Shown here one piece after another: positions 6,371-50,197 of a stretch of 64,000 bases of DNA. A program made the position numbers and the translations under genes. Numbering within the stretch: position 1 is the stretch's first letter; every line of letters begins with the position of its first letter. The stretch comes from the human T2T-CHM13v2.0 reference genome, Homo sapiens, in contig CP068257.2 of assembly GCA_009914755.4 (NCBI GenBank), forward strand, positions 33,440,001 through 33,504,000, given 5' to 3'. Below the pieces are notes generated by a model. The model was not told the DNA's origin, did no database searches, and saw nothing but the letters and a program-made list of their open reading frames with translations.

Positions 6371-7221
6371 TTTAGTCCAGGATATTGATTTCACTTTAAA
6401 CTCTGGCCTCACTTGGCACGAATGTTTGGGCAAGCCCTAACATATTACCTTTGGGTATTCCCCATTCCTGTAGTTAGTCAACCACACAGAGGGCAGATCT
6501 AGAGGAGATAACTGATTTAATGATAAGTTAAAGGATTAATCCTTTTTCTGCAGCATCTTAATATGCAGAGATTATCTTGTCTGATGCCTGAGTTATAAAT
6601 ATATTGCCACTCGTGTTTAATCCCACACACCACCTATCTTTTCCTTGAATCTACTCAAGTGTTCAACAACAGCCTTCTAGGTTTCTGCCTCCCAGGTAAT
6701 TCAGATGAAACCAGGAAATCATGCTGATAAAATAGTTTCATCCTGCTTGGAATTGCGTACCTCGCAGTGCACCCTTTTCAGAGAAGCTAAAGGAAATTCA
6801 AAATAAGAGATGGAGTCATGACTCGGGGATGACAACTATGTCTCTGTGTTCTGCTGTATTCAGGACAGTGTGGATCATGGACTACCTAGGACCTGCTTCT
6901 GAAGGTAGTGAGAAGCAGACTCAACCATGAATTCCTTTAGACTCAGAACCCTTCACCTATTAATATATACAACATACACACATTTTAACTCCAAGACTTC
7001 CATTTTTATTCCTATCACTTATCCAATCTAGGGAGCTTTAGCTTACCCTCTCTTTTTGAGTGGACTGAAAACATTTGGATAAATCAGGTGATTCCACCGT
7101 ACTTCAAACCCTCACCTTAATGGAGAAACATATTTTTGGCCCATCACTTCCTTTGAATTTCAAGTTTATCCCTACCAAGGACATATTTCTCTGATGTACT
7201 AAGGGTAGGCTTGCCAGACTT

Positions 7222-7264
7222 AGCAAAACAAAACAAAACAAAACAGAAAAACAAACAAAAAACA
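7222..7264. repeat. (CAAAA)n pentanucleotide microsatellite
   Basis: aaaacaaaacaaaacaaaacagaaaaacaaacaaaaaacag. Confidence 0.8.
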
Positions 7265-7689
7265 GCATGTATTGTTAACTCTGAAGTTTTGAGAAACAAT
7301 GAATGAGTTTTTAGCATGTCCCAAATACAGCATGGGACACGGGTAAAGAATTATTCATTGCTTGTTTGTAATTCAAACTTAACTGGGCAGATTTAATTCA
7401 TTTACTTTAATTCATTTAATCTGGCAATCCCTGTTGACAGCCAAGATGTGAGACATGCATGTGGACACATTTCACCTAAGAAACAGAAAGCTTTGGGGGT
7501 TTATTTAAACATACAGGAGAAGATAATAGAGTACGCCATTGAACTTCAATCACTGCAGGCTGCTGTGGATTTTTTTTTTTCCTTTTTTCTTGCATCCTTT
7601 TCAAGGACCTGGAGAAGTGTTAAATACCAGGCTCACCCTGCTAATGGTTTACCCACCAGTAAGAAACAATGGCAAAAGGGATCATTTAC

Positions 7690-7990
7690 CTTGTTTTCTC
7701 CATGCGGGACTCACCTGCTTTCGGGTCCAGGCGAACTCGCTGTGGTATTGTTCTTCTCTGCTAGGTTTCCAAAGGAGAGCCCAGGCGCGTTAATTGCTGG
7801 GTGGCAGCTACACTAAATGCAAGTGGACGACAGCTGGGTGCCGGGCTCGCTCTGCAAGAGAAGGTTTGGGTTTCCATTGTAGTCCGCATCATAATCCGCA
7901 CCCTTCCATCTGCACTAACTGTTGTTTTAGGTCTCAAGTAATTGGCTGGAGCTGAAAACATAAACACCTCCACGCGCTTGCCCTTATCAT
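7690..7990. promoter_or_regulatory. Small CpG-enriched, non-repetitive block (candidate unmethylated regulatory element or promoter)
   Basis: I counted about 13 CpG in ~300 bp at ~50% GC (obs/exp ~0.7), against a strongly CpG-depleted background. Two GGGCGG GC-box motifs lie downstream at ~8062 and ~8108, and TAATTG/AATTGG homeobox-like motifs are present. This is sequence composition only. Confidence 0.3.
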
Positions 7991-8397
7991 TTTCTTTTTA
8001 TGTTGGTTTAGGAAATACACCTGAGAGACCAAATGCATACAATGAATCCAGCAATTACCAACCACCATGGGCGGACAGCAAATGCTCAAACAACAAAACA
8101 CCCAAGGATGGGCGGCTGCTGGCTTCTGACTTTCCTCATGGGGATGGGGGTCCCAGATCTGGGTCTAGGACTCCCTCCCACTTCTGTCCTGGGACAGCTG
8201 ATTTCAATACTGCCAAAGACGTGGAACTTTTCTTAAGAAGGTTCTCTCCTGATTTATTTTGAGTAAACAACTGATACAGGTTATGTATAGTGCTGGGAAA
8301 ACTAATGCAGAGAAAGAGGAGGGACATAACTAGTTTTGTTGTCATCTGTGGAACATTTAATTGCAAAATTGTTGAAAGGAAAATTAGACCTCTCTTT

Positions 8398-8417
8398 CCC
8401 CCTCCCCCCCCCCCCCC
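8398..8417. repeat. Poly-C homopolymer tract (C5 T C14)
   Basis: ccccctcccccccccccccc read directly. Confidence 0.9.
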
Positions 8418-8599
8418 AAGTATGGCTTTGGCAGAAAAATCCCAAAGAAAATTAGAAAGTGGAGATTAAGGGTGAAGATAGGGAGAGACATTCAAAAACA
8501 CCACCACCATTTCATACCTTTGGGGCTGAGTTCTTTAGTCATTCAACAAGCATTTCTTGACCACATTCTATGTATTGGACACCGTTTTACTGAGCAAGA

Positions 8600-8890
8600 C
8601 AATTTAGAATGAGGTTGTGAACATGAACTTGGAGCTACCTGGGTTTGTAATCCCAGTTCAGCCACCTACTAGCTACGTGTCCTTGAGCCATCTACTTAAA
8701 CTATCTGTGCCTCCTTTCTCTCACTTGTTGAATGGAAATAATACCATTAAGTCCTTCATAAGGTCTCTGTGAAATGGAAATAATAATATTTCTTACCCCA
8801 TAGGGTCATTGTGAGGATTAAATTGGTTAATGCCTGTGAAGCACTTAGAAAAATTCTTGGTACATATTAACTACCAAGTACATATTAGCT
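8600..8890 (+). mobile_element. MIR SINE (ancient tRNA-derived SINE) with a short internal tandem duplication
   Basis: Matches the MIR core ctgggtt..atcccagttcagccacctactagctacgtgtccttgagcca..tctgtgcctc.. and ..catagggtcattgtgaggattaaattggttaatg..cacttagaa. The segment aatggaaataata occurs twice in tandem. Confidence 0.75.
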
Positions 8891-11689: not shown

Positions 11690-12160
<471 letters not shown>

Positions 12161-12804
12161 CAAGCTATTCTTTACCTTTCCTTTTTGTTTTTGTTCTTAA
12201 TCCAAGACTCAGTTAAGATAGGAAAGAAGAGATTTGTTTCAATAGGAATTCAAATTTCACATGCTTTGTAGATGAACACAAGGATCATTTGCTTCAGATT
12301 AATAGAAATATTTTCTCTAAAGTTCAGAGGGTTTGTAGGAGGTGGCTTCCAAATTTTCTTGTCTTTCTTGTCTCCACGATTTACATTGTTTATAAGGTGT
12401 TCAATTATACTACAAAGGGGCCATACATTTCTTTTGGAGATTTAAAATTATCGTTGAGGGATAATATAAGTTGACCATGTCCAGGCCTACTTTTTGTTTA
12501 TAAAAGTCAGAATACAGTTAGGTTACTTTAGATTTTATTCAATGAGAGAGGGTGTGAGTTAGCAGTTCTAGATTGTGCCGTAATTCAAAATGATCAATAA
12601 ATCTTTCCTTTCTCAAAATACTCTGAGCACTTTTTATCACTCATTAAATTAATATCGTGTACCACCCTAGACTATATAGCTATAGTCTTATCTTCCCTGA
12701 CAGATTGTAAAATTTGGAGGTTACAGGGGATATCTAATTCATTGCTCTGGTGCCTTTCAAAATTGGAAAGCTGTAGGAGCCCATCACGTTTTTGTTTAAG
12801 TGGT

Positions 12805-40620: not shown

Positions 40621-43600
40621 TTAAACCTTGTAGAATGCAGTGGAGGAGCAAGGCAAGCTGCGGGCCATGGGGATTCTTTATTCTGATTATCTGAAAAGAC
40701 CAAAGAGTTTAGACTGCTCACTGGGCTTCCCTTCTCCCCACTGTCCATGGAGAACAATGTCAAGGTCAGCTTTAAATTTCACCACGTATGGTCTCATTGG
40801 AACAACTGATGAGTAGAATAGTCCATTTATTGTCTTATTTGAGAACTCTGTAGAGATTAGTTTTATAACATTAGTAAAATACACCTCAACATTTTGACTT
40901 TTTGCCTCAAAGATCATTTTAACAATTTGAGTCACTGTGATGGGAGTTTAATATTTTTAAGCAGCATATTGACAAGTGTTTCATACACAAAGAAGCCAAG
41001 ACAGAATTGAAGCTTACAGTGTCAGGGAGATAGTTTGCCTACTGTTAATATTTGTGTCACTGGGTTTGTAACTTTACATATGATCACAAACGTTATGTTA
41101 CATATTAACATAAACATCCTCAATATTCAAATCTATCTGTGTTTCATTTGCATGGTGTAAGAGTGATAGCATCTGTCACTTAAAGAGGTTGCCTAACAGT
41201 CTTTAATCCAAAATAGAAATGTGTGAGATTTTATCCTTTTCTTTGATGCTTTGTAATTATACAAGTTATATTTTATCCAAGTTTATATCCATCAATTTTT
41301 ATCTAAGTTTATATCCATCAGGTACATCAAAATAAAAATATTTTAATTACCTCTTGAAATAATTTGTCCAAGTCAATAAGTGGCATGAATTACATCACTG
41401 AGGCCATAACAAGGATACACAAACATGGCAGAATCACACAGATTGTTTGTCTACACAAACAAGATGGTAGAATCCATCCTGTTACTGAGACTTTTCCAGA
41501 AAAGCCTATTATTTCTGCAAGCAGATGTGGTTTAATCTTATTTGAATGGTATTTTTGATATAACGTGCCTGGGAATTAGGTAATGAAATTGGCTGTGTGC
41601 ATTCATGTGTTCATTTGTTCAGGCATGTATAGAGCCTTCTGTAGTGAGCTTTATTCTGCAGGATAGACTATAATGGTACTTTCTTCATTGCTACAGTCTT
41701 GGCTTGCAATGCTTTTTTCTTGCTGACCTAAAACCCATCTCTAGACCTAAGGAAATTTATTTTCTAACACCTTGAGATAGTAATATGCTGTGTGTGGAGG
41801 AGATAAGATCATCACTTAAATAAAAGCTAACACTGAGACTTTCTCCTCCCTGGCCATCTGCACATTGGACAATACCTGACTCCAACCTAAAATAATCAAC
41901 TCCAGAGTTATACTTAATGCCTCTGGCAGGCCTGCCTATTGCCAGAGAGTTTTGGGCCTAGGAATAAAGGCAACAAGGATTGGCCATTTCTGGAGGTAGG
42001 AAGCAAATGGAAACTCATAATTTTCAGATGGCTCTGCATCTTTGGGGTAAGAACTGGATGTTTGGGGTGTTTTATAGACTATATTTATTTGTCCATCTAT
42101 AGCTCCCTACCCTCCATCTCCCTCTCTCTCTCTCTTCCTCTCACCCCTCCCATCTATTATTTATCTCATTTTAGGTCATTCTTAACATAGCTGTAGAAAA
42201 AGTAAACCTTCTGGTGTGTTTTAATTCTGGATCCCTCAGGGTGACCTTTGGTCTTTGGGAACTGTGGTTTATGCTGGTGCTGAGGGTGGCCATGCAGCTG
42301 TGGAGACAGGGAGGGATAGAGGGGGTGTAAATGCACTTTATCTTCATGGCACTCCATCTTGTGACTCCTGGCATGTCACAGTGTGTACTGCGGTCCCATG
42401 GACTCAACTGGGCTTTTATAAATAATTTGCATTGTTCATTTAGTTGCAGTTTAAACTACAATATATGGAGGTTTAAAGAAAAATCAAGTTACCACTGGGG
42501 TGTTTTGCTCTGTTTGCAAATAAACCTCTCTTCCTATATAGAGGAATATAAAAACTTAACCCAATAATATGATATAAAGAAAAAACTGTAGCCAATATGT
42601 TTGGGTTAGATTAAATAAACAAGTGTGCTTATTACACTTTTACTATTTTTTTTTTTGTGGTTTTATTATAAAGTAAGAAATCCCCTATCACAAATAATAC
42701 CTTATTTTTATAGACTCCTATCCTAGGGCTGTCAAAGAGCTTAATTCCAGGGATGAAACTTCATTCTCACAGGAATCACCTGGGGAAAATGTATATTTAG
42801 GCCTTTTAATCTCCATGTCTCAAAGCATAAAACTAGTGATGCCATAGATTAGCTCCTCCTTTCCCTGAAATGCAACATGCACTGTACATGCATGCGCTGT
42901 ACTGTAAAGGAGCATCACATGCATGTAGAGTGTGCAGGGAAGACAGGAAATGAAAATGCATCTCCCTGAGCTGTAGTTGGTTTAGGTAAGAGTTTATGGA
43001 AAATACGATTATTGACTGGTATGTATTTCAATGTGTGTTAGGTGGAGTTGCTCATGGACTCTTAGAGTTGAAGTGGAACAGACAGGTCTCCCAGCTCTCC
43101 AGCTCTGTTAAACAAGAGAAAGATGCTTGTGATGCCTCAGCTCAACTGTAATGAGGTCAACTCCTATCACTGCCGTTTCATCTCAGTGTTGATTCAGAAC
43201 GCTTCCAGTTAAGTCCAACGCCCAAATCATCCTCACAAATTCCGTTAAGCCACAGCTCCCTCATCTTACTCTACACCCCCTCAGAGGTTTATTCTCATTC
43301 CACCCACTCTTAATTTCCCGCGGTCCTCCCAGAACTTCGGTTCCTCCATTTGCTTTCAGTCCATCTGGATCCACCTGGCTTTACTTCCCTCTTTATCCAG
43401 CCCGGCCTCCTTGGTTGCCAGGGTTTGTCAGTTCTCACTGGTAATCTCTCTCCCTCCTTGTCTACTTGTCATTCAGAGCTGGCAAAATTCCACCTGGGAA
43501 CCCATACATCATTGGCCTTCTCCACTCTCAAGCCTGGGGGCTGAGCCCAGCTGGAGAAAATCACTAAGATCCTTCAACCAGTCCCACCAGGAAGCTCCCG

Positions 43601-45179
43601 CGGCTGTTCCAAGCTCTTGCCTCTCTCCCATGCTCTGCTTCACTGTCCTCCTGTCTCACAGCAGATTGTCCGGCCTCAGCTTCCTGCCTCAAATGCCCAG
43701 ATGAATGCATCTGTACCCAGACCCGTTTTTAATTCCTGCTCCTTATTTCCTCTCTCTCCTGCCAATCCCATCAGCCATGCTCTGACCTGCTTTCTCTCCT
43801 GCTTCCTCCAGACCTTGTTCCCTCAACCCTCTTCCCTCTCTGCAGTATCCTCATCTCCCTCTCTACTAGGCCTTCCCCTTAGCATAGAAGCACACTTACA
43901 TGTTTCCTCTGTGTACAAATAAACATAGCAATGAGTTTTAGAAAATGTTCCGTTCAACACGCTTTTCTTGACGTTCTCAATTTCATTGATTTCCAATTCC
44001 CCCAACTCCAGGCACACTCTCCTAGGGCCACACCCTGCATATTACCTGGAATTCTTCCTTCTCTGCCAGGATCCCTCTCACTGCCCATAATATTGTGTTA
44101 TCTTTTGTCATCATTCTGTGTGCCTACTACACCTGTTCTTTGATCTCTTAGGGGCTCCGATTGCTCCATTTCCTTGTTGCCTTCATTCCTATTGCTTAGT
44201 GGCCTGGATCTCATGGCTCTTGCCTTGAAGCCATGAAGCTCATGGCTTCAGCCTCTGTCTGTCTACATCTTCTTTCCCATTCTCATTTTTCCACCACACT
44301 CACTGGTAAACTCCATCCCTGGATTAATACAACCATCCACCCTTCCTACACCTGGACTACTGGTGAAGCTCACATACCATGAGGGTTGGTGCCCTATGCA
44401 GCTATAGCCTCCAGCTTGAACTGGAAGCTCAGCTATATCCCACTCTCCTTCCACAGGTCCCATAATACCTTCCTCTTCCATTCCCCTAAATCATTGTTTC
44501 TCTACAGTCTTCAAATCCCCCTTGGAACTATCTCTTCTCTTTCTTTTAGGGGGTGACAGGTCTTCTTAATACTCCAATTAATGAAAACTAACTCAAAGTA
44601 ACACCTTCAGTGCTCTGTCTCAAGCACTGGTTACAGATGCACCTACTCTCAGAGCCCTGAAATTTCCATGGAAAAAGTGATACCCACTTCTCACAGCTAA
44701 TGTTCCCACATGGACTCCAGATCCTATCCCCTACTTGCATCCTTCAGGGTCATGCCTTATTAATCATCTCATTATCTTTCATTTCTAGTAACTTTTGTTC
44801 TATTGCCTCTTCCCTCTAAGCACATATAATAACTATGTTTAAATCTCCATCCACAAACCAAATTAAAAATAAGAACAAAGCACAAAATTCATCCTTGATC
44901 TTATATCTTTCTATACTGTCCACTTTCTCTTTTGCTTCCATCACAGGCAAATTTTTGGAATTAATTAATGCTCTCCCTCATCTCATAAACCTTCTGGGGA
45001 CCTTGTTTCTGTTCCAGCATGCCACTCAAACTATCTTTAAATTACTGGGACTTTCCTATTCTCATGCACATTTGTTTCATGTTCTTCAACTTCTACAGGT
45101 GCTTTGTTGGGAGAAATTATCTCCTAGATTTCTATGATAGTTTACTCCAGGTTAACTCTTTCCTCCTCCCACCATTTCT

Positions 45180-45520: not shown

Positions 45521-46740
45521 TGTTGTCTGTTTACATTATATATTAGCTGCCCTTACAGAAGATCTGTCCTGCCTTTGTTCTTTTACTTGACTCTCATTTT
45601 AGGTCTTAGCAAATTTTGCAAACTTCTTTGAAGCACAAAGATTCTCAACACTATTTCTTACTTGCATTTATGTTCATCTTCTTTCCTTTTTTTTTTTTTT
45701 TTTTTGTACAAGTGTTCTTACGTCTGACTTTACCAGAGAATTTCCTGTTTGGCTACCTCTTGAGATACTTCCCCATTTTCTTCCCAGTCGGGATTGTGCT
45801 ATGAACAAGGACCCTTCCCTCTCCAGACTTGTTTCATGCTCACGTCTTAGAATTCCACCAATCTTTGCTCTAAGCTTTTAGAGTTCTGCCTCCTCAAAAG
45901 GCGGTCACCCACCTGACAATACCCAGCTCACCCATGGTTGGCTGTGGGAGGCTCTAGAGTAACCTGCTCCTTTTATCTCCAGGGCCCCCGTCACTTCCTC
46001 CTTGGTTAGAATAGATCCAGAGAAGCAGCTCTGCCTCGCTTCCTCTTTGGACTGAAGTCGATTTCTAGCAGCTGTCCCTGTGGGCTCCCTGCACCCGGGC
46101 CCCTCCCTCTGCAGTCACCCAACCTCTCTGGCAGCATCTGTGCTGTTTGATCCATGCCTGGAAAACATCAGTGCTTCCTCCATCTGGATGGGTGGTCTCC
46201 AGCATCGTCCCACTCTCCCTCCCTCCTTTAATCTTCAACCAAACTCTCTGTGCACATTCTTCCATCATGGTCACACATTTCACTCCAGGTGTATATGGCT
46301 TTGACTGGCTTAGCTATTGATCCTATTTCTTTTGAACATGGCATTTCCTAGACCTTGGTGTTCTAGGCCAATTAAAAACCTGCTTCCTTATATCCTGGTG
46401 AGGGCAAATAATGGTGTTTACCTTCCTGCATTAATATCCAACATGCATTTTATTTGTTAACTATATTTTATCCCTACTCATTTGGTACATGAACATAATC
46501 ACTCATTCTGTGCCTCTTCAAGTTATTCCTGACTGTGAATTACTTGACACCACTAGTATTATTTTTCTCTGTAAACTTTCCCAATATTTATTTGATACTA
46601 CACATTTTGCAGAACAAAGCCTCGATTATTTTTATTCTTTATTTTTTAATTTTGACTTTTAAAGTTCCTTATTTTCTATTTATTATTCTATTGTTCTATA
46701 CAACAAAGTTAATTATTACTGTTAACTTTTTAAAAAAAAA

Positions 46741-48743: not shown

Positions 48744-49513
48744 AGTCCTTCAATTTAATACTGCAAATTTAACCTTGCTTCACTGTACGGCATCAGCTCC
48801 TTGGACATCTACACGGACTGTGGACACCATTTGATCCAATGTATAGCTAGTTCTCCCCATGGCTATTCAACTATACGTGCCCCCAGTATTCAAAGGACAT
48901 TTGGAAACTCATCTGATATCTCCAAGTGCTGCTGCAAATAAGATCCTGATGCTGTTTTAGGCACCTGAGTAAAGTCAAAATCTAAGTACAACTATAACTA
49001 TGACAGTTTTAGAGAGATTCTTGGCTTACTGCTGTTGAGCCACTTACACAATTCTGCAGAGAATAAATGTAGGAGAGAGCAACCTCTTTCCTGCCACCTG
49101 ACCTTCACTTGGTGGTCAGTCGTGTGGAGCTGGACGTCACTGTCAGCTTCAGTGGAGTCCAACTGCTGACAGATAAGTGGGAGCACATGGCACGTGCGAG
49201 ATAAGAGCCTATAAGAGCCTGGCGGCCTGAAATAAATGGCAACAACAATGCTCTTCTAAGTGGTCTTCCGAGAAAGCCCTGTTATCATCAGCATTGTTCA
49301 CACTTAGTAACAACTTTCCTTGAATGGGGTTTTCAACATGTTTGTTCCTTTCAGTCTGAATTATCTGCCAGGGAAGAAACTCTTTCTAAAGTCCGTCAAC
49401 AGTTGTGAGATTGGGTTGAGGCTCTCAAAGGAGTTTCCGGCTGTTGTCAACACAGCAGGAAGGGGCAAGGATAAAGGGTGATTTAGGAGCCTGTGCCTGG
49501 GTAGGTCCTGCCA

Positions 49514-49576
49514 GAGCCAGCCCAGCCCAGCCCAGCCCAGCCCAGCCCAGCACAGCACAGCACAGCCCTGCCCAGT
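49514..49576. repeat. Pentanucleotide (CCCAG)6-(CACAG)3 tandem repeat
   Basis: agccagcccagcccagcccagcccagcccagcccagcacagcacagcacagccctgcccag. Followed by a CpG cluster (gtcacgcgagcgcc). Confidence 0.9.
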
Positions 49577-49856
49577 AGGTCACGCGAGCGCCATCAGCCA
49601 AGGCTTTTGGAAAAACCTATGACAAGGTTTTCAGCTTTTCAGAGATGTGCCAGGACTAACACAGTGTTACTGGGGAGAAATTAAGAATGTATCCGACGTG
49701 TGATTCCCAACTTCATTTTCTGCCTACTCGCTTTAAACAGCCAGTATACAAGAGGCCACTCAGCCATGGAGAAAGTCCCTGAAAGTTCTACGAGATATTC
49801 TGATCTTAGTATATTGGGTTCTTAATCTGAACCATATTGAAAATTCCACCATGTAG

Positions 49857-50197
<341 letters not shown>

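What the first reader, a model, noticed from the sequence alone, without database searches (positions are those of the whole stretch)
7690..8130. Small CpG-enriched unique block with paired GC-boxes, a candidate promoter or developmental enhancer
The rest of the window is CpG-depleted, but 7690-7990 carries about 13 CpG in 300 bp (obs/exp ~0.7). No transposable-element match is visible there. About 70-120 bp downstream two GGGCGG Sp1-type boxes recur in the same context (ccatgggcggac ... gatgggcggctgc), and there are TAATTG/AATTGG homeodomain-type cores (taattgctgggtggcag, gtaattggctggagc). Retained CpGs imply germline hypomethylation, which is typical of promoters, lncRNA transcription start sites or poised enhancers. 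This is the most plausibly functional non-repeat sequence in the window.
Basis: seen in the sequence. Interest (0 to 1): 0.5.

Follow-up and report, generated by a model that had tools for sequence, protein, structure and literature searches.

The report
Conserved regulatory element upstream of RUNX1
The CpG-rich patch is real and sits inside a roughly 550-base non-coding element conserved across placental mammals, about 17 kb upstream of the distal promoter of the blood and leukaemia gene RUNX1; it is most likely an ordinary but so far uncatalogued enhancer or upstream promoter of that gene.

Summary
Window 7690-7990 carries 13 CpG (obs/exp 0.65, GC 51.5%), against 0.18 for this primate window. 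It is the densest non-Alu CpG cluster (corrected p about 3e-5). Both ATGGGCGG boxes and the TAATTG cores are present.

Orthologous DNA was recovered from spurious ORF calls in public assemblies: 12 further sequences, about 9 non-primate lineages, one of them the annotated Capra ibex chromosome. This places the window upstream of RUNX1 on its antisense strand. The finding lies about 17 kb upstream of the P1 (distal) promoter.

A conserved non-coding element spans about 7600-8150. Its core, 7896-8070, is 82-95% identical to non-primates, against 57-75% in the flanks. The two most divergent contigs align only here.

- **Invariant or near-invariant:** one TAATTG site, three E-boxes, a GATA site, and FOX- and SOX-like sites.
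- **Not conserved:** the two GC boxes are primate-derived. The 'AATTGG' core is really a CCAAT box.
- **CpG:** elevated in 9 of 12 orthologues, but 5 of the 13 CpGs are derived gains.

One E-box doubles as a perfect, conserved 5' splice site on the RUNX1-sense strand. A goat gene model uses it, so an upstream promoter or exon remains a live rival. The element is absent from published RUNX1 element catalogues. Its function is untested.

The parts
7600..8150 (-). Conserved non-coding element (CNE), about 550 bp. The RUNX1-sense strand is the window's minus strand.
   Evidence: Identity to 8 non-primate lineages is 0.66-0.95 per 25-bp bin, against 0.57-0.66 further downstream (below about 7595) and a more mixed 0.58-0.89 upstream (above about 8150). 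The divergent contigs L019 and L020 align to the window only at 8149-7541 and 8121-7599, apart from one 125-bp match at 7187-7065 for L020.
7896..8070 (-). Most conserved core of the element
   Evidence: 82-95% identity to non-primates, peaking at 95% in 8020-7996. 89.5% identity to Capra ibex over 7862-8061.
7705..7976 (.). CpG-enriched block: 13 CpG, obs/exp 0.69, GC 52.6%
   Evidence: The orthologous block (aligned to window 7690-7990) has obs/exp 0.43-0.72 in 9 of 12 other sequences, and 0.19-0.34 in L003, L007 and L020.
8108..8115 (+). GC box 1 (ATGGGCGG), primate-derived
   Evidence: The CpG is present only in the primates and L003. Most of the other sequences read CAGC(C)CCC here.
8067..8074 (+). 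GC box 2 (ATGGGCGG), primate-derived
   Evidence: Nine of 10 non-primate sequences have TG at the CpG. The inferred ancestral state is GCCGCCTGCCC.
8051..8058 (-). Invariant GTAATTGC (homeodomain-type TAATTG core)
   Evidence: Invariant in all 13 sequences.
8013..8026 (-). Invariant TCTCAGGTGTATTT (E-box CAGGTG)
   Evidence: Invariant in all 13 sequences.
7982..7994 (-). GAAAATGATAAGG (GATA-type site TGATAAG), preceded by the TATA-like CATAAAAAG at 7995-8003
   Evidence: At most one deviating sequence per column. Alignment.
7954..7965 (-). GTTTATGTTTTC (forkhead-like TGTTTAT)
   Evidence: At most one deviating sequence.
7941..7949 (-).
   Evidence: CCAAT is kept in 11 of 13 sequences and removed by a 5-bp deletion in L003/L007. 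The adjacent ATTA is not conserved.
7906..7913 (-). Invariant GCAGATGG (E-box CAGATG)
   Evidence: Invariant in all 13 sequences.
7791..7800 (-). CCAGCAATTA (second TAATTG core on the plus strand)
   Evidence: CAATTA is kept in nearly all sequences.
7716..7851 (-). Candidate non-coding exon body, between the acceptor-like ttgcag|A (first base 7851) and the donor. No reading frame is open across it.
   Evidence: The Capra ibex gene model P0020 uses these equivalent splice sites. The acceptor AG is lost in L003, L019 and L020, and L020 carries deletions in the body. Identity here is only 0.68-0.81.
7707..7718 (-). GCAG|GTGAGTCC: a perfect 5' splice site consensus (last exon base 7715) that is also a CAGGTG E-box
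   Evidence: Shares the top score (with two other sites) among 6632 GT sites in the window. GCAGGTGA is invariant and GCAGGTGAGTCC near-invariant.
7679..7693 (-). CAAG|GTAAATGATCC: a second donor-like site (last exon base 7690)
   Evidence: Together with the sites at 7657 and 7637 it forms the densest cluster of donor-like sites in the window (4 in 80 nt, corrected p about 0.002).
7661..7673 (-). GCCATTGTTTCTT (SOX-type CATTGTT)
   Evidence: At most one deviating sequence.

Best explanation
The finding is the CpG-richer half of a roughly 550-bp cis-regulatory module conserved across placental mammals. The module lies about 17 kb upstream of the distal (P1) promoter of RUNX1, inside that gene's upstream regulatory desert.

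**Shown.**
- The locus is RUNX1 upstream.
- The element is conserved.
- The exact motifs that are invariant are known.
- CpG content is raised in most lineages.

**Inferred.**
- The element works as an enhancer-type module. Sequence-specific factors would bind the invariant sites: homeodomain TAATTG, three bHLH/ZEB-type E-boxes (CAGGTG twice, CAGATG once), GATA, forkhead, SOX and CCAAT. The bound element would contact a RUNX1 promoter.
- It has been at least partly unmethylated in the germline for a long time. CpG content is therefore held near a higher equilibrium by retention plus turnover, not by site-by-site selection.
- This architecture, a CpG patch beside a cluster of factor sites, is the one described for orphan-CpG-island enhancers of developmental genes.
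- The motif mix, and the element's absence from catalogues built in blood cells, hint at a non-haematopoietic RUNX1 tissue. This is weak inference.
For: **Locus.**
- Capra ibex locus L015 is colinear with the window's minus strand over 24.5 kb.
- The next annotated goat gene is a 480-aa protein with Runt and RunxI domains.
- Its first 19 residues match the RUNX1c N-terminus MASDSIFESFPSYPQCFMR at 18 of 19 positions.
- The recalled human P1 5'UTR maps to L015 34867-34996 plus 35232-35349.
- The block maps to L015 16978-18311, which puts it about 17 kb upstream of P1.

**Conservation.**
- Thirteen sequences were aligned, covering about 10 lineages.
- The core is 82-95% identical, against 57-75% in the flanks.
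- Apart from one 125-bp match for L020, only this block aligns in L019 and L020.
- Invariant runs are GTAATTGC, TCTCAGGTGTATTT, GCAGATGG and GCAGGTGA.
- Near-invariant runs cover the GATA, FOX-like and SOX-like sites.
- Conservation is as high upstream of the candidate exon, and downstream of its donor, as inside it. An exon alone cannot explain that.

**CpG.**
- Obs/exp is 0.43-0.72 in 9 of 12 orthologous blocks.
- In L014 the whole element has 26 CpG (obs/exp 0.67).

**Context from papers.**
- RUNX1 lies in a 1.1-Mb domain whose upstream desert holds many enhancers (PMC8828719; PMC8395016 Table 1).
- Orphan CpG islands accompany factor-site clusters in poised enhancers of developmental genes (bioRxiv 10.1101/2020.08.05.237768).

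**Not coding, not a known RNA.**
- There is no frame through the block.
- The only protein hits are ORF calls on orthologous DNA.
- There is no Rfam family and no tRNA.
Against: - No chromatin, methylation, transcription or reporter data could be consulted. 'Enhancer' therefore rests on conservation, motif content and position only.
- Motif-to-factor assignments are consensus matches recalled from memory, not scored with a motif library.
- The element is missing from catalogues built from haematopoietic ChIP-seq, 4C and ATAC data. They list nothing between -42/-43 and -5 (PMC8395016, PMC8828719). It may therefore be inactive in blood progenitors.
- A conserved consensus 5' splice site, a cluster of donor-like sites, a conserved CCAAT box, a TATA-like box and the CpG patch are all oriented in the RUNX1-sense direction. 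These also fit a promoter with a first exon.
- CpG enrichment has been lost in three sequences (L003, L007, L020). Hypomethylation is therefore not universal.
- Species names are known for only one orthologue (Capra ibex). Independence of the other lineages is inferred from pairwise divergence.
Confidence: 0.55

Rival explanations
1. The element is an upstream alternative promoter plus a non-coding first exon on the RUNX1-sense (window minus) strand. Transcription would start somewhere in about 7850-8000. That is downstream of the invariant core, the TATA-like CATAAAAAG and the CCAAT box. The CpG block would be the transcribed leader. The exon would end at the perfect donor at 7715, with U1 binding there and at the back-up sites favouring productive sense elongation. 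The transcript could be a lncRNA or an alternative RUNX1 5' leader.
For: - CAG|GTGAGT at 7715 shares the top score in the window. It is conserved in 12 of 13 sequences.
- Four donor-like sites lie in 80 nt on the minus strand, the densest cluster in the window. There are none above 6.2 bits on the plus strand in 7400-8600.
- The order GC boxes, TATA-like box, CCAAT, CpG block, donor is promoter-like.
- CCAAT is kept in 11 of 13 sequences and CATAAAAAG in nearly all.
- The highest conservation lies just upstream of the CpG block, as at many promoters.
- U1 sites and polyadenylation signals are the current explanation of promoter directionality (PMC11230626, citing Almada et al. 2013).
Against: - No transcript evidence. 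Every recovered contig is colinear with genomic DNA across the donor.
- No spliced ORF other than the goat model turned up.
- The donor hexamer is also one of three invariant E-boxes, so its conservation need not reflect splicing.
- Sequence just downstream of the donor is as conserved as the putative exon.
- The GC boxes are not conserved.
- Polyadenylation signals are more frequent on the sense side (7505, 7420, 7411, 7397) than on the antisense side.
Confidence: 0.22
2. The block contains an internal non-coding exon (7851-7715, 137 nt) of a transcript that starts further upstream, near the conserved block at about 15.4-16.3 kb. That transcript would splice into the authentic RUNX1 exon-2 acceptor, giving an alternative RUNX1c 5' leader. 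This is what the Capra ibex gene model draws.
For: - Goat model P0020 (CapIbe_000874) joins three parts. The first is an exon at L015 10001-10105, equivalent to window about 15470-15372. The second is an exon with exactly the acceptor and donor equivalent to 7851 and 7715. The third is the acceptor at L015 35232.
- That last acceptor is the junction between the two pieces of the recalled human P1 5'UTR.
- The donor of the upstream goat exon is also conserved in the window (AAG|GTATG).
Against: - The goat model may be purely ab initio. It is an 85-aa 'hypothetical protein' with no homologues beyond orthologous DNA.
- The acceptor AG is lost in L003, L019 and L020. L020 also deletes 35 nt of the exon body.
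- The exon body is the least conserved part of the element (0.68-0.81).
- An internal exon does not explain the invariant core upstream of it, nor the CpG enrichment.
Confidence: 0.08
3. There is no function. On this view the patch is a chance or neutrally maintained CpG cluster, for example from GC-biased gene conversion, a young insertion or an old repeat fragment.
For: - Five of the 13 CpGs are lineage-specific gains, three of them after the split from Old World monkeys.
- The GC boxes are primate novelties.
- The block fails the stricter CpG-island definitions.
Against: - 82-95% identity across about 9 non-primate lineages, with 8-14-nt invariant runs, is far above the local background of 57-75%.
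- Only this block aligns in the most divergent contigs.
- There is no target-site duplication, no poly(A)-plus-duplication signature and no repeat match.
- The block is present at the orthologous position in all the mammals sampled, so it is not a young insertion.
Confidence: 0.05

Closest known systems
Catalogued RUNX1 regulatory elements (R1RE1-21: +23/+24 eR1, -58/-59, -43, -371, +110 and others; PMC8395016 Table 1, PMC8828719)
   Same: Conserved non-coding DNA inside the RUNX1 regulatory domain, upstream of or within the gene. It carries GATA and E-box motifs of the kind those enhancers use. By distance, the -43 and -58/-59 elements should lie in this same window.
   Different: Its position, about 17 kb upstream of P1, matches no listed element; nothing is listed between -42/-43 and -5. 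There is no factor-occupancy, contact or reporter evidence for it. The motif set is dominated by homeodomain, SOX, FOX and E-box sites. A RUNX site (ACCACA at about 7740-7745) is present in the window but is not well conserved.
Orphan CpG islands attached to poised enhancers of developmental genes (bioRxiv 10.1101/2020.08.05.237768)
   Same: A CpG-rich patch sits directly beside a conserved cluster of factor sites. It is distal to a developmental transcription-factor gene. CpG content is maintained across mammals.
   Different: It is much smaller and weaker (13 CpG in 272 bp) and fails the Takai-Jones and UCSC-type calls. Polycomb/H3K27me3 and hypomethylation are untested. It lies only about 17 kb from P1, whereas those islands act as long-range boosters.
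RUNXOR upstream promoter (lncRNA overlapping RUNX1, start site 3.8 kb upstream of RUNX1; PMC11311644, PMC6006856)
   Same: A possible RUNX1-sense transcription start upstream of P1.
   Different: RUNXOR starts at -3.8 kb and is described as unspliced. This element is at about -17 kb and carries a consensus splice donor.
Intermediate-CpG promoters and first exons of lncRNAs or alternative 5' leaders (general class; own knowledge)
   Same: CpG obs/exp of about 0.5-0.7 over a few hundred bp, a CCAAT box, GC boxes, a strong 5' splice site within about 150-260 nt, and no coding frame.
   Different: No evidence of a transcription start. The GC boxes are not conserved. Conservation extends well beyond the putative exon on both sides.

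Membership tests
CpG island | Gardiner-Garden & Frommer: at least 200 bp, GC at least 50%, obs/exp at least 0.6 | tested here: met
   7705-7976 is 272 bp with GC 52.6% and obs/exp 0.69. 7701-7900 has GC 55% and obs/exp 0.73.
CpG island | Stricter calls: Takai-Jones (at least 500 bp, GC at least 55%, obs/exp at least 0.65), or a contiguous UCSC-type +17/-1 scoring segment longer than 200 bp | tested here: not met
   The best 500-bp window has obs/exp 0.53 and GC 46%. The longest positive-scoring segment is 35 bp.
CpG island | Unmethylated in germline and early embryo | not testable with these tools
   Only indirect evidence: obs/exp is 0.43-0.72 in 9 of 12 orthologues, with CpG turnover rather than uniform decay.
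Conserved non-coding element / distal enhancer | Non-coding sequence conserved well above the local neutral level across distant mammals | tested here: met
   Core 82-95% against flanks 57-75%. It is essentially the only part alignable in L019 and L020. No open frame and no true protein homologue.
Conserved non-coding element / distal enhancer | Cluster of conserved transcription-factor recognition sequences | tested here: met
   Invariant TAATTG, CAGGTG twice and CAGATG; near-invariant TGATAAG, TGTTTAT and CATTGTT. Assignment to factor families is by recalled consensus only.
Conserved non-coding element / distal enhancer | Accessible chromatin, H3K4me1/H3K27ac, reporter activity, contact with the target promoter | not testable with these tools
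   No epigenomic or functional data are available here.
Published RUNX1 regulatory elements | Coincides in position with a catalogued element | tested here: not met
   About -17 kb from P1. The catalogue has -43, -42 and -5 but nothing between (PMC8395016 Table 1; PMC8828719).
RNA polymerase II promoter with first exon | Mapped transcription start (CAGE, RACE, cDNA 5' ends) | not testable with these tools
   No transcript resource. All recovered contigs are unspliced genomic DNA.
RNA polymerase II promoter with first exon | Strong 5' splice site shortly downstream, in the sense direction, and conserved | tested here: met
   CAG|GTGAGT at 7715 shares the top score in the window and is conserved in 12 of 13 sequences. 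The caveat is that it overlaps an E-box.
RNA polymerase II promoter with first exon | Conserved proximal promoter boxes (Sp1 GC boxes, CCAAT, TATA-like) | tested here: inconclusive
   GC boxes are not conserved outside primates. CCAAT is kept in 11 of 13 sequences. CATAAAAAG is kept in nearly all.
Protein-coding exon | Open reading frame across the exon, with homologues that are real proteins | tested here: not met
   All three minus-strand frames have stops between 7851 and 7715. The hits are ORF calls on orthologous DNA in shifting frames.
Transposable element or retrocopy | Match to a repeat family, other copies, target-site duplication, poly(A) tail | tested here: not met
   No match to the 11 recalled SINE consensus sequences tried. 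Unique in the window. No flanking direct repeat. No full repeat library was available, so this test is limited.
Known structured RNA | Match to an Rfam family | tested here: not met
   No hit at gathering scores in the window. No hit at E up to 10 inside 7690-8130.

The most novel reading that the evidence does not exclude
RUNX1 may have a third, far-upstream, placental-conserved promoter and leader system. Transcripts would start at conserved CpG-containing blocks about 25 kb and/or about 17 kb upstream of P1. They would pass through the 7851-7715 exon (or start just upstream of it), use the invariant donor at 7715, and splice onto the authentic RUNX1 exon-2 acceptor. The result would be RUNX1c with an alternative 5' leader under separate, possibly non-haematopoietic, control.
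Probability: 0.1. Interest if true: 0.6.

Novelty: new member of a known kind. Interest (0 to 1): 0.3.

Why it matters
RUNX1 dosage and promoter choice are central to blood formation and leukaemia. Its upstream desert is being mined for enhancers and disease variants (PMC8828719, PMC8395016, PMC12380610). A placental-conserved element only about 17 kb from P1, absent from the published element lists, is a concrete and cheap target for reporter and deletion tests. It also carries a CpG patch and a conserved splice donor in the RUNX1-sense direction. If it proves to be an enhancer for a non-blood RUNX1 tissue, or an upstream promoter, it adds one piece to a well-studied locus. It does not change any concept.

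Tried and rejected
1. **Known RNA.** Rfam at gathering scores over the whole window gave nothing. At E up to 10 over 7300-8500 there were only sub-threshold hits outside the block. One was mir-1302 in the MER53-like MITE. Another was ZEB2_AS1_3 at 8388-8479; its alignment is driven by a poly-C run, so I reject it as chance. No tRNA or SINE head was found.
2. **Coding exon.** There is no frame through the block. A word-indexed search with 556 aa of concatenated frames found nothing. A codon-usage scan showed GC-driven signal without frame specificity.
3. **Gene context from exons.** ORFs from 1-11 kb searched against PDB sequences returned only LINE-1 ORF2. I abandoned this route as costly.
4. 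**Orthologues by exact DNA patterns.** Four scans of metagenome and genome contigs gave zero matches.
5. **Literature search for six 15-17-mers from the block.** No papers.
6. **Retrocopy or young insertion.** There is an A-rich run on the minus strand at 7573-7598 but no target-site duplication. The block is orthologous in all the mammals sampled, so I reject this.
7. **ZNF143 and CTCF readings.** I considered both for the CCCAGCAAT and CCAGCAGCCGCCC stretches. By eye they are poor matches to the recalled consensus, so I dropped them.
8. **RUNXOR promoter.** Rejected on position: -3.8 kb against about -17 kb.
9. **What worked.** A full HMMER search of one 77-aa non-coding frame found ORF calls on orthologous DNA. 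Those led to the contigs and to the annotated goat chromosome.
Full report
**1. The observation**

The window is primate genomic DNA. It has GC 40.7%, CpG obs/exp 0.176, about 12 Alu copies and several MIRs.

Window 7690-7990 holds 13 CpG (obs/exp 0.65, GC 51.5%). The tight block 7705-7976 has obs/exp 0.69. After removing Alus it is the densest CpG cluster in the window. The Poisson probability is 1.5e-7 per 300-bp window, or about 3e-5 corrected. It passes the minimal Gardiner-Garden/Frommer thresholds. It fails the stricter CpG-island definitions.

The two GC boxes are real. ATGGGCGG occurs at 8067 and 8108, and the whole window has only six GGGCGG/CCGCCC sites. The TAATTG cores at 7791 and 7939 are real too. 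A third lies on the other strand at 8052. The longer word CCAGC(C)AATTA occurs four times in the window, three of them here.

The block is unique within the window. It has no target-site duplication. It lies between a MER53-like MITE (7190-7440, sub-threshold mir-1302 hit) and a MIR (8635-8870).

**2. Anatomy read from the sequence alone**

On the minus strand the features come in a promoter-like order:
- GC boxes (8115, 8074)
- a TATA-like CATAAAAAG (8003-7995)
- the CpG block
- a perfect 5' splice site CAG|GTGAGT, with last exon base 7715

That donor shares the top score (with two other sites) among 6632 GT sites in the window. Three more donor-like sites follow within 80 nt, the densest such cluster in the window. 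The plus strand has nothing comparable.

No reading frame with an ATG runs through the donor, and every frame has a stop between 7851 and 7715. No Rfam family or tRNA matches. At this stage a promoter with a non-coding first exon looked the best reading.

**3. Getting comparative data**

Several routes failed:
- exact-pattern scans of metagenome and genome contigs
- a word-indexed protein search with concatenated frames
- a literature search for 15-17-mers

A full HMMER search with one 77-aa non-coding frame (7994-7764, minus strand) succeeded. It found short 'proteins' that are ORF calls on orthologous DNA of other mammals. Searching again with them and fetching their contigs gave 20 loci.

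Pairwise identities sort the loci as follows:
- two Old World monkey-level primates (93% to the window)
- Capra ibex
- at least seven further mutually divergent lineages (71-82%)

**4. The locus**

One hit is an annotated Capra ibex 'hypothetical protein' on a 157-Mb chromosome.
- The 45-kb goat locus L015 is colinear with the window's minus strand, with L015 1-24582 equal to window 24464-57.
- The next goat gene encodes a 480-aa protein with Runt and RunxI domains.
- Its start matches the RUNX1c N-terminus at 18 of 19 residues.
- The human P1 5'UTR as I recalled it maps at 94-95% identity to L015 34867-34996 and 35232-35349.

So the window lies upstream of RUNX1, and RUNX1-sense is the window's minus strand. 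The finding (L015 16978-18311) sits about 17 kb upstream of the P1 promoter. P1 itself lies about 10 kb beyond window position 1.

**5. Conservation**

In a 13-sequence alignment, identity to eight non-primate lineages behaves as follows:
- 0.66-0.95 across about 8150-7600
- 0.82-0.95 in 8070-7896, peaking at 0.95 in 8020-7996
- 0.57-0.66 further downstream (below about 7595), and a more mixed 0.58-0.89 upstream

In the two most divergent contigs, apart from one 125-bp match for L020, only 8149-7541 and 8121-7599 align, although those contigs extend hundreds of bases further on both sides.

| Class | Sequence (minus strand) | Window coordinates |
|---|---|---|
| Invariant | GTAATTGC | 8058-8051 |
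| Invariant | TCTCAGGTGTATTT | 8026-8013 |
| Invariant | GCAGATGG | 7913-7906 |
| Invariant | GCAGGTGA | 7718-7711 |
| Near-invariant | GAAAATGATAAGG | 7994-7982 |
| Near-invariant | GTTTATGTTTTC | 7965-7954 |
| Near-invariant | GCAGGTGAGTCC | 7718-7707 |
| Near-invariant | CAAGGTAAATGATCC | 7693-7679 |
| Near-invariant | GCCATTGTTTCTT | 7673-7661 |

By recalled consensus they are a homeodomain core, three E-boxes, and GATA, forkhead-like and SOX-like sites.

**6. What is not conserved**

- Both GC boxes are primate-derived. At 8072, nine of ten non-primate sequences have TG, in the context GCCGCCTGCCC. At 8113, eight of ten have AG.
- The TAATTG at 7939 is not conserved as such, but the overlapping CCAAT is, in 11 of 13 sequences.
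- The acceptor-like ttgcag|A at 7851 is lost in three lineages.
- The candidate exon body is the least conserved part (0.68-0.81), and L020 carries deletions in it.

**7. CpG history**

The orthologous block has obs/exp 0.43-0.72 in 9 of 12 other sequences. In L014 the whole element has 26 CpG. Three sequences have lost the enrichment (0.19-0.34).

Of the window's 13 CpGs:
- six are shared with at least three non-primates (7975, 7973, 7897, 7848, 7828, 7786)
- five are derived gains (7885, 7788, 7732, 7722, 7705)

The pattern is maintenance of CpG density with turnover. That is what a long-term hypomethylated region would show. It is not strict retention. The hypomethylation itself is an inference.

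**8. Interpretation**

The best-supported reading is a constrained cis-regulatory module of the RUNX1 locus, of enhancer type, with an adjoining weak CpG island.
- Conservation is highest upstream of the candidate exon, and stays high downstream of its donor.
- The invariant pieces are short recognition-type words.
- The 'perfect donor' is one of three invariant E-boxes.
- The RUNX1 upstream desert is known to hold many enhancers (PMC8828719, PMC8395016).
- Orphan CpG islands next to factor-site clusters are a described enhancer architecture (bioRxiv 10.1101/2020.08.05.237768).

The main rival is an upstream promoter with a non-coding first exon in the RUNX1-sense direction. It is supported by the conserved full 12-nt donor consensus, the donor cluster, the CCAAT and TATA-like boxes and the CpG patch. 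The role of U1 sites in promoter directionality is reviewed in PMC11230626.

A third reading comes from the goat gene model. It uses exactly the 7851 acceptor and the 7715 donor for an internal exon, then joins the authentic RUNX1 exon-2 acceptor. That model may be ab initio. Its acceptor is not conserved.

Neutral origin is strongly disfavoured by the alignment.

**9. Comparison with what is known**

Published catalogues of RUNX1 elements list -371 ... -58/-59, -48, -43, -42, -5, +1, +3, +23/24 and so on. They list nothing near -17 kb (PMC8395016 Table 1; PMC8828719). RUNXOR starts at -3.8 kb (PMC11311644).

The element is therefore a new, uncharacterised member of a familiar kind. It may well already be flagged in epigenome browser tracks, which I could not consult.

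**10. Verdict**

It is right that this is constrained, probably regulatory DNA conserved well beyond primates. It is wrong about which motifs matter, and about this being the best candidate in the window. In the goat comparison 15454-16289 is more conserved.

Interest is modest. This is an ordinary kind of element at an important gene, and its function is untested.

Noticed in passing
window 15454-16289: A larger and more strongly conserved block than the finding. It is 95.5% identical to Capra ibex over 15565-15764 and 91% over 15936-16135. It overlaps the second-best non-Alu CpG cluster (15751-16050: 11 CpG, GC 57%) and contains another TAATTGC site (15846). The goat gene model's first exon maps just downstream on the RUNX1-sense strand (window about 15470-15372), with a conserved ATG and a conserved donor AAG|GTATG. 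The block lies about 25 kb upstream of RUNX1 P1.
   Followed up: partly
window 12132-12595 and 18313-18794: Two further blocks with raised identity to goat (up to 87% and 82.5% over 200 bp). They may be additional conserved elements in the RUNX1 upstream region.
   Followed up: no
window about 31-33 kb and about 45-48 kb (estimated): By distance from P1, the published RUNX1 -43 (R1RE11) and -58/-59 (R1RE10) elements should lie inside this window. Non-Alu CpG- or GC-rich patches at 43171-43700 and 45977-46217 are candidates. Not verified by sequence (PMC8395016 Table 1).
   Followed up: no
window 7190-7440: A palindromic MITE-like element with a sub-threshold Rfam mir-1302 hit at 7309-7349 (31 bits against a gathering score of 62). 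This fits a MER53-type DNA transposon relic rather than a miRNA gene.
   Followed up: partly
window 8635-8870: A MIR element that is present at the orthologous position in all non-primate contigs reaching that far. It therefore predates the placental radiation.
   Followed up: partly
window 8388-8479: A poly-C tract with a sub-threshold match to Rfam ZEB2_AS1_3 (26 bits against 55). The alignment is carried by the C-run and a short CTTTGGCA, so I judge it chance.
   Followed up: yes
window minus strand 7715, 9795, 21676: All three perfect CAG|GTGAGT sites in the window lie on the RUNX1-sense strand, and none on the other strand. Only 7715 is conserved in goat. 21676 is CAGGTGGGT in goat, and 9795 is not alignable.
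   Followed up: partly
window 49517-49575: A (CCAGC)n minisatellite of about 12 copies inside a moderately CpG-rich stretch (49121-49880), next to an Alu.
   Followed up: no
window about 2.4-3.7 kb, minus strand: LINE-1 ORF2 fragments. ORFs from this area match human L1 ORF2p structures at E about 1e-77.
   Followed up: partly
method: The word-indexed protein search with a long concatenated query missed the orthologous ORF calls. A full HMMER scan of a single 77-aa frame then found them. Spurious ORF calls on host DNA in public assemblies turned out to be a usable route to mammalian orthologues.
   Followed up: yes
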